Source: a virus (lineage: Duplodnaviria > Heunggongvirae > Uroviricota > Caudoviricetes). From it: 9,606 bases of DNA. Position numbers and translations under genes: made by a program. The DNA is taken from the IMG/VR virus record IMGVR_UViG_2541047901_000004, positions 1-9,606 of that record; one strand, written 5' to 3'. This document shows positions 8,586 to 8,836 of the stretch, piece by piece. A model generated the notes under the pieces. The model saw only the letters and a program-made list of their open reading frames with translations. It searched no databases and was not told the DNA's origin. Every line of letters begins with the position of its first letter. Within the stretch, counting starts at the first letter, position 1.

Positions 8586-8609
8586 GGGCGGCGATAGCCG
8601 CCTTTTTTT
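8586..8609 (+). terminator. Intrinsic terminator after the capsid gene
   Basis: Stem GGCGGC / GCCGCC with loop GATA (8587-8602), followed by TTTTTTT (8603-8609), 8 nt after the stop. Confidence 0.65.
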
Positions 8610-8610
8610 G

Positions 8611-8680
8611 CGGGTCCTCCCGGTGTAGTGACCTGCCACGGGGCGGGAGCGTCGCGGAAAAAGGCTAGTTTTTGCATTTT
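8611..8680 (+). repeat. Copy 2 of the 70-bp conserved element
   Basis: CGGGTCCTCCCGGTGTAGTGACCTGCCACGGGGCGGGAGCGTCGCGGAAAAAGGCTAGTTTTTGCATTTT, 68/70 identical to 6075-6144, again immediately after an intrinsic terminator. Confidence 0.8.
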
Positions 8681-8836
8681 TATTCGTCATCATCATCTTT
8701 CTATGGTATTGAATTTTAAGTGTTTTTATTTTTGATATGTTAATTTTGCTTGTTTTATGCTCAACATATAGCGCATTTTTTGACCTCTTCTGAAAGTTGT
8801 TCGCAAGATGCATGTTTAAAACATTCTGGAGCGGGT

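What the first reader, a model, noticed from the sequence alone, without database searches (positions are those of the whole stretch)
8586..8836. Packaging-gene upstream region: second copy of the element plus a long AT-rich leader before the Nu1-like gene
The Nu1-like small-terminase candidate starts at 8837, about 150 bp after copy 2 of the conserved element. In cos and pac phages the packaging recognition site usually lies in or just upstream of the small terminase gene, so this interval is the best in-window candidate for the element's packaging signal and for the packaging-operon promoter. A satellite that carries both a capsid protein and a terminase-like gene raises the question of whether it packages itself or redirects helper machinery.
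Basis: inference. Interest (0 to 1): 0.55.

Follow-up and report, generated by a model that had tools for sequence, protein, structure and literature searches.

The report
Lambda-type cos site of a satellite
The stretch in front of the terminase-like gene is a lambda-style DNA packaging (cos) site carried by an E. coli phage satellite of a known kind; what is unusual is the satellite's altered copy of the phage protein that reads the site.

Summary
Window 8586-8836 holds a terminator hairpin, the second copy of an 80-nt repeat (95% identical to 6068-6147), a 32% G+C leader, and then a gene starting at 8837.

The repeat is a lambda-type cosQ+cosN. It aligns base for base with the lambda right|left end junction: cosQ GGGTCCT at 8612-8618 and a 12-nt cosN, GGGCGGGAGCGT, at 8641-8652. 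The GenBank records of phages cdtI and Tritos start exactly at the position of 8641. The AT-rich leader is cosB. It is about 80% identical to the cos-terS interval of phi458/mEp460-like lambdoid phages and about 95% identical to that of a rarer prophage type.

The 8837-9322 product is a DUF1441/phrog_141 small-terminase homologue. Its DNA-binding half equals a prophage TerS, but its C-terminal 60 residues are satellite-specific.

The island is an EcCICFT073-like PICI of about 10.4 kb. This gene sits where rppA sits in EcCICFT073. Copy 1 of the repeat is a second complete cos, of cdtI type.

The packaging-signal reading is supported. The promoter reading has no support. This is a new variant of a known kind, of moderate interest.

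The parts
8587..8609 (+). Intrinsic terminator of the capsid gene (stem GGCGGC/GCCGCC, loop GATA, T7). Its T-run abuts the cos element.
   Evidence: Read from the sequence. The hairpin was found by the terminator scan. The cos site upstream of rppA in EcCICFT073 has the same layout.
8612..8618 (+). cosQ heptamer GGGTCCT, 29 nt upstream of cosN (30 nt in lambda).
   Evidence: Identical to lambda 48473-48479 in the junction alignment. cosQ is described as invariant in lambda-like phages (PMC4669245).
8641..8652 (+). cosN: predicted 12-nt 5' cohesive end GGGCGGGAGCGT. Nicks are predicted between 8640/8641 (top strand) and 8652/8653 (bottom strand), each flanked by CG.
   Evidence: Aligns with lambda GGGCGGCGACCT. 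Positions 1-6, 10 and 12 are identical; positions 7, 8, 9 and 11 differ. The cdtI and Tritos records start here. The published putative mEp213 cosN aligns on the same columns.
8653..8689 (+). Conserved spacer between cosN and cosB (I2-like): CGCGGAAAAAGGCTAGTTTTTGCATTTTTATTCGTCA.
   Evidence: Nearly invariant across islands and phage classes. Partly alignable with lambda bp 13-45.
8690..8792 (+). cosB, the presumed TerS-binding region. The R3-equivalent position (bp 50-65 from the cut) is 8690-8705. An A/T-rich GTTTTTATTTTT at 8721-8732 lies at the same distance from cosN as the similar stretch in lambda's IHF region.
   Evidence: The sequence class tracks the N-terminal DNA-binding-domain class of the adjacent DUF1441 protein, in both phages and satellites. 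The R3 position is taken from PMC9026076.
8793..8847 (+). 55-nt block identical in the island and phage phi458. It spans a near-palindrome around ATGCAT, the Shine-Dalgarno GGAG (8828-8831) and the start codon.
   Evidence: Alignments; inverted repeat.
8837..9322 (+). DUF1441 small-terminase homologue (161 aa). Residues 1-~100 (predicted winged HTH plus coiled coil) equal a prophage TerS; residues ~101-161 form a satellite-specific module.
9319..9606 (+). 95-aa ORF whose ATG overlaps the stop codon of the TerS-like gene (ATGA). It sits where terL sits in phages.
   Evidence: 73% identical to the last ORF of EcCICFT073. Matches phrog_1561, function unknown. No Pfam family.
6052..6303 (+). Second complete cos (cos1). 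It comprises a terminator (6052-6073), cosQ (6076-6082), cosN GGGCGGGAGCGG (6105-6116), a cdtI-type cosB with an exact IHF consensus at 6168-6180 (- strand) and two 39-nt repeats (6169-6207, 6246-6284), and a decayed terS start (GTG at 6301).
   Evidence: About 93% identical to phage cdtI from cosQ to the cdtI terS start.

Best explanation
Window 8586-8836 is a lambda-type cohesive-end site (cos) of a roughly 10.4-kb EcCICFT073-like phage-inducible chromosomal island. In order it holds a terminator that ends the capsid transcript, cosQ, cosN, and an AT-rich cosB that runs to the start of a DUF1441 small-terminase homologue.

Proposed mechanism, all of it inferred. A lambdoid helper prophage of the DUF1441-TerS/gpA-like-TerL group (phi458, mEp460, cdtI, Sp15/Gifsy type) is induced. 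The island then excises and replicates into concatemers. A small-terminase assembly binds cosB through its winged-helix N-terminal domain and positions the helper's large terminase on cosN. TerL makes nicks 12 nt apart, leaving the 5' end GGGCGGGAGCGT. DNA is packaged rightwards through the TerS-like gene, the attachment junction, int and onwards. Packaging ends at a later cosQ-cosN.

The island's own DUF1441 protein supplies, or competes for, cosB recognition. Its C-terminal module differs from that of every phage TerS examined. It therefore most likely acts as a modified, Rpp-like partner or competitor of the helper TerS, not as a simple replacement.

Shown here: sequence homology, the position of the cut relative to phage record ends, the association of cosB class with DNA-binding-domain class, and the association of the C-terminal module with element type. 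Inferred: cleavage, binding, the identity of the helper, and the role of the C-terminal module.
For: - Junction alignment with lambda and cdtI: cosQ is identical, cosN positions 1-6 are identical, and the CG flanks are kept. These are the features that define lambda-like cos sites (PMC4669245; PMC9026076).
- The phage cdtI and Tritos records begin at the base equivalent to 8641. The published putative mEp213 cosN (PMC12315714) falls on the same columns.
- Window 8605-8860 is about 80% identical to the interval between the lysis genes and terS in phi458, 569R4, mEp460 and PhiR47_1. That interval is followed there by gpA-like terL and a portal gene.
- Prophages L143-L145 carry a leader about 95% identical to the window's, followed by TerS and then GpA-type TerL.
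- All 35 related IMG/VR islands carry cos about 225 nt upstream of the gene.
- cosB class follows the DNA-binding-domain class in all four combinations of phage or satellite with phi458-type or island-type domain.
- The island has the same gene order as EcCICFT073, where a terminator-cos unit precedes rppA and cos function has been shown experimentally (PMC6092414; PMC6739421).
Against: - No experimental ends exist for this island. The cdtI and Tritos record starts could have been set by analogy with lambda and not measured; I could not read the cdtI paper.
- cosB and the DNA-binding-domain coding sequence are adjacent, so their co-inheritance could reflect linkage and not a binding relationship.
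- There is no exact IHF consensus in cos2, and no R-type repeats were found there.
- The island protein differs from the phage consensus at 12 of the 30 columns that are at least 90% conserved in residues 101-150, and it lacks the acidic tail. It may therefore be unable to bind TerL.
- Fold searches did not establish the Nu1/Rpp fold.
Confidence: 0.85

Rival explanations
1. The island's DUF1441 protein is mainly an interference factor. It binds cosB, or joins helper TerS oligomers, but cannot recruit TerL. This blocks helper packaging, while the island is packaged by helper TerS acting on cos1 and/or cos2.
For: The C-terminal module is specifically diverged: 12 of 30 conserved columns are changed in residues 101-150, against 3 of 35 in residues 1-100. 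The tail charge is +1, against a mean of -7 in phage proteins. The module type separates satellites from phages cleanly: an acidic tail goes with TerL as the next gene in 61 of 61 loci. Rpp proteins, at the same position in EcCICFT073, lack a TerL-binding domain. Cos1 has a nearly intact cdtI cosB with no cognate gene.
Against: Blocking a cosB that the island shares would block the island as well. Cos2 next to this gene is universal in the family, while cos1 is present in only about two thirds of islands. Prophages with the same cosB are rare, at 2 of 5426 complete genomes, so most potential helpers would not read cos2 unaided.
Confidence: 0.3
2. The island protein is a plain satellite TerS, comparable to the SaPI TerS. 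It binds helper TerL directly and redirects it to the island's own cosB.
For: It is full length, with a predicted winged HTH and long helices. It matches phrog_141. Its cosB class differs from the two common prophage classes. Island-type cosB occurs in about 257 complete E. coli genomes, against 2 that carry the matching prophage.
Against: The region that is nearly invariant across genera in phage TerS is exactly what has changed in the island protein. That region is presumably held constant by its contact with TerL, but this is an inference by analogy with lambda Nu1, whose C-terminal 40 residues bind gpA.
Confidence: 0.35
3. The 80-nt repeat is a transcription element or a structured RNA (a terminator/antiterminator or an sRNA), and the AT-rich leader is a promoter.
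For: Both copies follow terminators and precede operons. A weak sigma-70-like site lies at 8732-8761. Fold z-scores are about -2.5 on either strand.
Against: No Rfam family matched; the best hit is a chance match to a eukaryotic lncRNA, below its threshold. The element aligns base for base with lambda cosQ-cosN and lies at phage genome ends. The number of promoter-like sites is no greater than in shuffled sequence.
Confidence: 0.05
4. Cos2 is a relic carried in with a captured phage fragment, and it no longer works.
For: The whole cos-terS block is clearly phage-derived.
Against: cosQ, cosN and the spacer are intact and are conserved in all 35 islands examined. The adjacent gene is intact and 96-99% conserved across islands at different integration sites.
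Confidence: 0.07

Closest known systems
EcCICFT073 cos1/cos2 plus RppA, the E. coli cos-type PICI (Fillol-Salom 2018, PMC6092414; 2019, PMC6739421; Murialdo and Feiss 2022, PMC9026076)
   Same: The gene order is the same: int-alpA-icd-DUF4222-primase-orf-SSB-...-capsid-...-cos-(packaging protein)-orf~95. A terminator whose T-run abuts cosQ-cosN lies just upstream of the packaging protein. There are two cos sites per island. The last ORF is 73% identical.
   Different: Here cosN is GGGCGGGAGCGT, not lambda's GGGCGGCGACCT. The packaging protein is a full-length DUF1441 TerS homologue with no detectable sequence similarity to RppA. The two cos sites are direct repeats flanking the capsid gene, whereas in EcCICFT073 they are inverted and flank rppA. 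The capsid gene is a protease-capsid fusion, not a lambda E-like gene with a decoration gene.
Phage lambda cos (cosQ-cosN-I2-cosB)
   Same: The cosQ heptamer is identical. The 12-nt cosN has the same left half and the same CG flanks. The position just upstream of terS is the same. The direction relative to terS is the same.
   Different: cosN differs at positions 7, 8, 9 and 11. The cosQ-cosN distance is 29 nt, not 30. Beyond about bp 45 the cosB sequence is essentially unrelated. TerS is of the DUF1441 family, not Phage_Nu1.
cos regions of lambdoid phages with DUF1441 TerS (cdtI, Tritos, mEp460, phi458, VT1-Sakai/Sp15; Gifsy-type heads)
   Same: Cos2 is about 80% identical to phi458 and mEp460 over cos-terS, and has the same cosN as cdtI. 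Cos1 is about 93% identical to cdtI. The island capsid fusion protein is 65-69% identical to the capsid of these phages.
   Different: In the island there is no terL after the gene, a terminator lies directly upstream of cosQ, and the C-terminal module of the protein has been replaced.
SaPI-type satellite TerS (pac satellites)
   Same: The satellite carries its own small-terminase homologue next to its packaging site.
   Different: SaPI packaging is pac/headful and is helped by the Ppi interference protein. This island uses a cos system, and its protein shares its DNA-binding half with a phage.

Membership tests
Lambda-like cos site (as defined by Feiss and co-workers) | A 12-nt cohesive-end sequence with clear identity to lambda, with the left half conserved and the right half free to vary | tested here: met
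   8 of 12 positions are identical, including positions 1-6. The differences are at 7, 8, 9 and 11. Gifsy-1 differs at 8, 9 and 11.
Lambda-like cos site (as defined by Feiss and co-workers) | Conserved CG dinucleotides flanking both nick positions | tested here: met
   The sequence reads CG|GGGCGGGAGCGT|CG at both copies.
Lambda-like cos site (as defined by Feiss and co-workers) | An invariant 7-bp cosQ about 30 bp upstream of cosN | tested here: met
   GGGTCCT at 8612-8618 and at 6076-6082, each 29 nt upstream of cosN.
Lambda-like cos site (as defined by Feiss and co-workers) | [quoted passage not shown] | tested here: inconclusive
   An AT-rich region lies in the right place, and its class tracks the TerS DNA-binding-domain class. 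In cos2 there are no clear R repeats and no exact IHF consensus. Cos1 has an exact IHF consensus and two 39-nt repeats.
Lambda-like cos site (as defined by Feiss and co-workers) | Terminase cleavage that gives 12-nt 5' overhangs in virion DNA | not testable with these tools
   The only support is indirect: the cdtI and Tritos records start at the predicted nick.
Gram-negative PICI (EcCICFT073 type) | int-alpA-primase/rep order, one transcription direction, size 10-20 kb, flanked by att repeats | tested here: met
   Domain hits. Annotation in strain IrN. 17-nt direct repeats lie 10.38 kb apart. The synteny matches EcCICFT073.
Gram-negative PICI (EcCICFT073 type) | An Rpp protein that redirects helper TerS | tested here: not met
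   No Rpp homologue was found. The protein at that position is DUF1441. blastp against RppA gave E = 5. There were no PDB sequence hits to RppC. Foldseek against 6hn7 gave E = 0.27.
Gram-negative PICI (EcCICFT073 type) | Induction and transfer that depend on a helper phage | not testable with these tools
   -
Phage small terminase of the DUF1441 / phrog_141 family | Sequence membership in the family | tested here: met
   Pfam PF07278, E 9e-36. phrog_141, E 1.6e-56. 67% identical to phi458 TerS.
Phage small terminase of the DUF1441 / phrog_141 family | The gene lies immediately upstream of, and overlaps, a gpA-type terL | tested here: not met
   The next gene is the 95-aa ORF, not terL. Phage homologues have TerL next in 61 of 61 loci.
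Phage small terminase of the DUF1441 / phrog_141 family | A conserved C-terminal module (LETLPDILERDC...DDLRDQ plus an acidic tail) | tested here: not met
   12 of 30 conserved columns are changed. The tail charge is +1, against -7 in phage proteins.
Phage small terminase of the DUF1441 / phrog_141 family | An N-terminal winged-helix DNA-binding domain of the Nu1/MerR type | tested here: inconclusive
   The AlphaFold model shows a strand-helix-helix-hairpin-helix pattern in residues 9-55, at pLDDT about 80. hhalign aligns residues 9-51 with Nu1 residues 2-46, but with a probability of only 9%. Foldseek hits to MerR-like domains and to RppC are not significant.
Capsid-forming PICI (cf-PICI) | The island's own terL, portal and head-tail connectors in addition to the capsid gene | tested here: not met
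   The island carries only a protease-capsid fusion gene and the TerS-like gene.

The most novel reading that the evidence does not exclude
Satellites that parasitise the very common DUF1441-terminase lambdoid phages carry a chimeric small terminase. Its cosB-reading half is taken unchanged from a phage, and its C-terminal half is a satellite-only module paired with a conserved 95-aa partner gene. This would be a second, independently evolved solution to the problem that Rpp solves: a TerS mimic that captures or disables the helper terminase through the oligomerisation/TerL-contact end of the protein, not through the DNA-binding end. The two direct cos sites, with cosB regions from two phage lineages, would widen the helper range. 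They could also generate capsid-less derivatives by cos-to-cos packaging, and such derivatives do exist (L100, L104).
Probability: 0.3. Interest if true: 0.65.

Novelty: new variant of a known kind. Interest (0 to 1): 0.45.

Why it matters
Cos-type PICIs of E. coli are known to hijack lambda-type terminase through Rpp. Why some of them carry two cos sites is stated as an open question in PMC6739421.

This island shows the same layout rebuilt for another, very common group of lambdoid phages. DUF1441-TerS prophages occur in about 1,300-1,600 of 5,426 complete E. coli genomes, and include prophages of O157 and Stx-converting phages. In this island a TerS chimera stands in place of Rpp. Each of the two cos sites is matched to a different phage lineage.

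This gives testable predictions about helper range and about how satellites subvert terminase. It also gives an exact predicted cut site for experiments. If the C-terminal module turns out to be just drift, the finding reduces to an ordinary cos site in a known type of satellite.

Tried and rejected
- The Rfam scan of the whole window at E <= 1 gave only two chance hits, both below threshold. I rejected a known RNA family.
- RNA folding of the element on both strands gave z about -2.5, which is unremarkable.
- Record ends of mEp460 and Ayreon looked at first like evidence for the cut site. Both records are opened arbitrarily at terS (PMC5764929), so I did not use them.
- phmmer and profile searches of the protein against PDB sequences found nothing relevant.
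- hhalign against a two-sequence Nu1 profile gave the expected register but a probability of only 9%.
- A regex hit for a 'third cos' about 983 nt downstream of the gene in some relatives has no cosQ, so I treat it as a false positive.
- I tried to find a helper prophage in the island's own host genome. A cosB2 query finds 3 places in strain IrN, but the tools list only the best place per record. A query built from the matching prophage type did not bring IrN into the listed rows.
- The cdtI paper could not be read. The Tritos paper says nothing about DNA ends.

Full report
**What the window is**

The 9.6-kb window is 100% identical to a chromosomal island of E. coli strain IrN and three other complete genomes. 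The island lies between cspD/yljB and clpS. A 17-nt direct repeat, AATGGTGTAGTTAATTT, occurs 38 nt upstream of int and again 738 nt beyond the end of the window. This makes the island about 10.4 kb long.

The gene content is as follows:
- a tyrosine integrase
- AlpA
- an Icd-like protein
- a DUF4222 protein
- a D5-type primase
- a small ORF
- SSB
- a 68-aa ORF
- a ClpP-like prohead protease/major capsid fusion protein
- a DUF1441 protein
- a 95-aa ORF

This is the gene order of EcCICFT073, the model Gram-negative phage-inducible chromosomal island (PICI). I fetched EcCICFT073 for comparison. Its last ORF is 73% identical to the window's last ORF. The DUF1441 gene sits exactly where rppA sits in EcCICFT073.

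**Checking the observation**

The 80-nt repeat is real: 6068-6147 and 8604-8683 are 95% identical. Copy 2 ends 154 nt before the ATG at 8837. The 153 nt in between are 32% G+C against 48.6% for the window, which puts them in the lowest 2.2% of windows of that size.

Directly after the capsid stop codon there is a GC-rich hairpin (8587-8602) followed by T7. The T-run runs straight into the repeat. Copy 1 is preceded in the same way by the SSB terminator at 6052-6073.

**What the repeat is**

A search of phage genomes with 8560-8860 hit the interval between the lysis genes and terS of many lambdoid phages. With the 93-nt core alone, the records of phage cdtI (AB285204) and phage Tritos (OV696610) begin exactly at the base equivalent to window 8641.

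I joined the right and left ends of lambda and of cdtI and set them beside both window copies. The alignment is base for base:
- lambda: ...ACGGGTCCTTTCCGGTGATCCGACAGGTTACG|GGGCGGCGACCTCGCGGG...
- window copy 2: ...GCGGGTCCTCCCGGTGTAGTGACCTGCCACG|GGGCGGGAGCGTCGCGGA...

The features that define lambda-like cos sites in the work of Feiss and colleagues are all present (PMC4669245; PMC9026076):
- the invariant cosQ heptamer GGGTCCT (8612-8618, and 6076-6082 in copy 1)
- a 12-nt cosN with a conserved left half and a variable right half; the window differs from lambda at positions 7, 8, 9 and 11, and Gifsy-1 differs at 8, 9 and 11
- CG on the outer side of each nick

The putative cosN published for mEp213, GGGCGGCGCGCT (PMC12315714), falls on the same alignment columns.

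The 'conserved element' is therefore cosQ plus cosN. The predicted nicks are at 8640/8641 and 8652/8653.

The starts of the mEp460 and Ayreon records were not used as evidence, because those records were opened arbitrarily at terS.

**What the AT-rich leader is**

From cosN to the start codon, the window aligns with the corresponding interval of phi458, 569R4, mEp460 and E. coli prophages.
- A spacer, 8653-8689, is nearly invariant.
- A block, 8793-8847, is identical to phi458. It covers the ribosome-binding site and the start codon.
- The stretch between them varies by class.

In complete E. coli genomes, identity to 8653-8836 is bimodal. About 257 genomes match at 90% or more, and 1,311 match at 60-80%. 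Examples fetched from the first group are islands of the same kind at other integration sites (thiM; tRNA-Ile/mug). Examples from the second group are lambdoid prophages with the order lysis genes - cos - DUF1441 - gpA-type terL - portal.

In 80 IMG/VR loci the variable stretch falls into classes, and each class goes with a class of the N-terminal domain of the adjacent protein:

| Class | Variable stretch of cosB | Matching protein feature |
|---|---|---|
| phi458 type | ...CACCACTACTGTAAT...ATTGATATTACAGTGG... | GGHESNLKLY wing |
| O157 type | ...CATCATCTTTGCATCTTATTGATT... | GGHDKLKLY wing |
| island type | ...CATCATCTTTCTATnnTATTGAATTTTAAGTG... | AAIAGICRQTAAARL helix |

I tested the prediction this makes, and it held both ways.
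- Satellites whose protein has the phi458-type N-terminal domain (P0006) carry phi458-type cosB.
- Prophages whose TerS has the island-type N-terminal domain (P0011) carry the island-type leader, about 95% identical to the window's, and are followed by TerL.

The variable stretch begins at the position of lambda R3, which is bp 50-65 from the cut, or 8690-8705 here.

This is what a TerS-cosB recognition pair should look like. One caveat applies: the two sequences are adjacent, so linkage alone could give the same pattern.

Cos2 has no exact IHF consensus and no clear R repeats. A GTTTTTATTT stretch lies at the same distance from cosN as a similar one in lambda's IHF region.

**The gene behind the site**

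The 161-aa product matches DUF1441 and phrog_141, 'terminase small subunit'. Its identity to phage proteins is:
- 67% to phi458 TerS
- 48% to VT1-Sakai H0025
- 48% to cdtI TerS, over the C-terminal half only

The cdtI TerS is itself a DUF1441 protein.

An AlphaFold model built on 40 homologues has a mean pLDDT of 80.5. It shows a strand-helix-helix-hairpin-helix unit in residues 9-55, followed by long helices. hhalign places residues 9-51 on Nu1 residues 2-46 in the expected register, but with low probability. Fold searches were not significant. 'Nu1-like' is therefore plausible but not shown.

The unexpected result concerns the C-terminal part. In 36 phage-type homologues from many enterobacterial genera, residues 101-150 are nearly invariant and the tail is strongly acidic.

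| Measure | Island protein | Phage-type homologues |
|---|---|---|
| Conserved columns (>=90%) changed, residues 101-150 | 12 of 30 | reference set |
| Conserved columns (>=90%) changed, residues 1-100 | 3 of 35 | reference set |
| Net charge of the last 15 residues | +1 | -7 (mean) |

The module type separates elements by context.
- An acidic tail goes with terL as the next gene in 61 of 61 loci.
- The island-type tail goes with the 95-aa ORF as the next gene in 11 of 13 informative loci, and never with an overlapping terL.

The island protein is therefore a chimera. Its first roughly 100 residues are identical to a prophage TerS (P0011), and its last roughly 60 are satellite-specific.

**The second cos**

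Copy 1 is not just a repeat. From cosQ onwards, about 270 nt are roughly 93% identical to the cdtI cos region, up to the cdtI terS start codon. That start codon has decayed here to GTG at 6301 and is followed by a terminator.

This cosB contains the only exact IHF consensus in the window (6168-6180, minus strand). On its own that match is not significant: 86 of 200 shuffled sequences also had at least one match. It also contains two 39-nt repeats ending in CTGTTTT(T)CACCTG.

The island therefore has two direct cos sites 2,536 bp apart, which flank orf68 and the capsid gene. Their cosB regions come from two phage lineages whose TerS proteins differ in the DNA-binding domain. The two cosN sequences differ at position 12 (G against T), and both variants occur in phages.

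Published work bears on this in two ways. Termination in lambda-like phages does not depend on cosB. A mismatch in the cohesive ends that includes position 12 is tolerated, at a cost of about fourfold in yield.

Among related islands, cos2 is always present (35 of 35). An upstream cos is present in about two thirds (21 of 32 informative loci).

Two IMG/VR islands, L100 and L104, lack exactly the segment between the two cos copies. In them the SSB terminator is joined through a single cos to cosB2. Three routes could produce this: recombination across the repeat, packaging from cos2 to cos1, or descent from an ancestor that never had the capsid segment.

EcCICFT073 also has two cos sites, but there they are inverted and flank rppA. 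Why PICIs carry two cos sites is stated as an open question in PMC6739421.

**How it most likely works**

By homology, and by analogy with lambda and EcCICFT073, the likely sequence is this.
1. A helper prophage of the DUF1441-TerS/gpA-TerL group is induced.
2. The island replicates into concatemers.
3. A small-terminase assembly bound at cosB places helper TerL on cosN.
4. DNA is packaged rightwards from 8641 and is cut again at a later cosQ-cosN.

The island capsid fusion protein is 65-69% identical to the capsid of these phages. The late module as a whole therefore matches this helper group.

The role of the island's own protein is not settled. Prophages with the same cosB and DNA-binding domain are rare: about 100% matches occur in 2 of 5,426 complete genomes. 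Island-type cosB is found in about 257. Most potential helpers would therefore need the island protein in order to read cos2. Yet the part of the protein that is held constant in all phage versions has been replaced. By analogy with Nu1, that part is expected to contact TerL or to drive assembly.

I consider two models about equally likely: a directly TerL-binding satellite TerS, and an Rpp-like partner or competitor of the helper TerS. All steps after 'homologous to cos' are inference.

**The promoter claim**

Only one sigma-70-like site lies in the leader (8732-8761, 9 of 12 matches). The count of such sites in the scanned region is no higher than in shuffled sequence. The hexamers vary among islands. 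The same leader occurs in prophages, where late transcripts simply read through it.

In the island a terminator stands directly in front of cosQ. Expression of the TerS-like gene therefore needs either an unrecognised promoter or read-through. AlpA is the known activator of EcCICFT073 genes. Relatives embedded in a prophage late operon (see below) would be read by antiterminated polymerase. I could not decide between these possibilities.

**Comparison with what is known, and novelty**

PICI cos sites, double cos sites, PICI capsid genes and helper-embedded PICIs have all been described (PMC6092414, PMC6739421, PMC9026076, PMC10111431). The interval itself is therefore an ordinary member of a known class.

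The following points are not described in any paper I found:
- the use of the cdtI/Gifsy-type cosN
- a DUF1441 TerS chimera in the place of Rpp; a full-text search for 'DUF1441' returned three unrelated phage genome papers
- the satellite-specific C-terminal module
- two direct cos sites whose cosB regions are matched to two phage lineages

I rate this as a new variant of a known kind, with moderate interest.

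Noticed in passing
window 6052-6351: Copy 1 of the repeat is a whole second cos. It is about 93% identical to the phage cdtI cosQ-cosN-cosB region. It carries the window's only exact IHF consensus (6168-6180, minus strand) and two 39-nt repeats. It is followed by a decayed cdtI-type terS start (GTG at 6301) and a terminator (6335-6351).
   Followed up: yes
L100 (about 3617-5270) and L104, compared with window 5417-6147 and 8604-9606: Two related islands lack exactly the 2.5-kb orf68-capsid segment between the two cos copies. 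The flanking matches overlap by the 80-nt repeat. This is a precise cos-to-cos deletion, or possibly the ancestral state.
   Followed up: partly
window 9137-9322 (residues ~101-161 of the DUF1441 protein): The C-terminal module is satellite-specific. 12 of 30 columns that are otherwise at least 90% conserved are changed, and the acidic tail is replaced by ...KNDVVNEVAKQA. The module type predicts whether terL or the 95-aa ORF follows the gene. Chimeras with either type of DNA-binding domain exist (P0006, P0011).
   Followed up: yes
window 9319-9606: A 95-aa ORF whose ATG overlaps the stop codon of the TerS-like gene (ATGA). It sits where terL sits in phages, is 73% identical to the last ORF of EcCICFT073, and matches phrog_1561 (function unknown) but no Pfam family. 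It could be a partner of the satellite C-terminal module.
   Followed up: partly
L101-L103, L117, L118, L126, L128, L132 (about 1,130 nt after the terS-like start): In several relatives the island is followed by an internal part of a gpA-type terL gene at 96-99% identity. These islands are embedded in a prophage terminase gene, like the helper-embedded PICIs described in PMC10111431.
   Followed up: partly
L007 5963-5979 and 16344-16360 (host genome; outside the window): A 17-nt direct repeat, AATGGTGTAGTTAATTT, bounds the island at about 10.4 kb. The window therefore lacks about 740 nt of the island's right arm.
   Followed up: partly
window 8793-8847: A 55-nt block spanning a near-palindrome around ATGCAT, the ribosome-binding site and the first codons is identical in the island and phage phi458. 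The flanking sequence is only about 75-90% identical. The block may be a binding or translational control site, or a recombination boundary.
   Followed up: no
window 6116 compared with 8652: The two cosN copies differ at position 12 (G against T). DNA cut at cos2 and ended at cos1 would have a one-base mismatch next to the bottom-strand nick. Both variants occur in phages.
   Followed up: partly
window 6666-8579: The capsid gene is a ClpP-like prohead protease/major capsid fusion (NF045540, 904 bits). It is 65-69% identical to the fused head gene that lies about 4.3 kb downstream of terS in the DUF1441-TerS prophages (Gifsy-2-type heads). There is no portal gene or terL in the island.
   Followed up: partly
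NZ_CP187535.1 (strain IrN), coordinates not recovered: A cosB2 query finds three places in the host genome of this island. Two further cos-like loci, possibly helper prophages, therefore exist in that genome but could not be located with the tools.
   Followed up: partly
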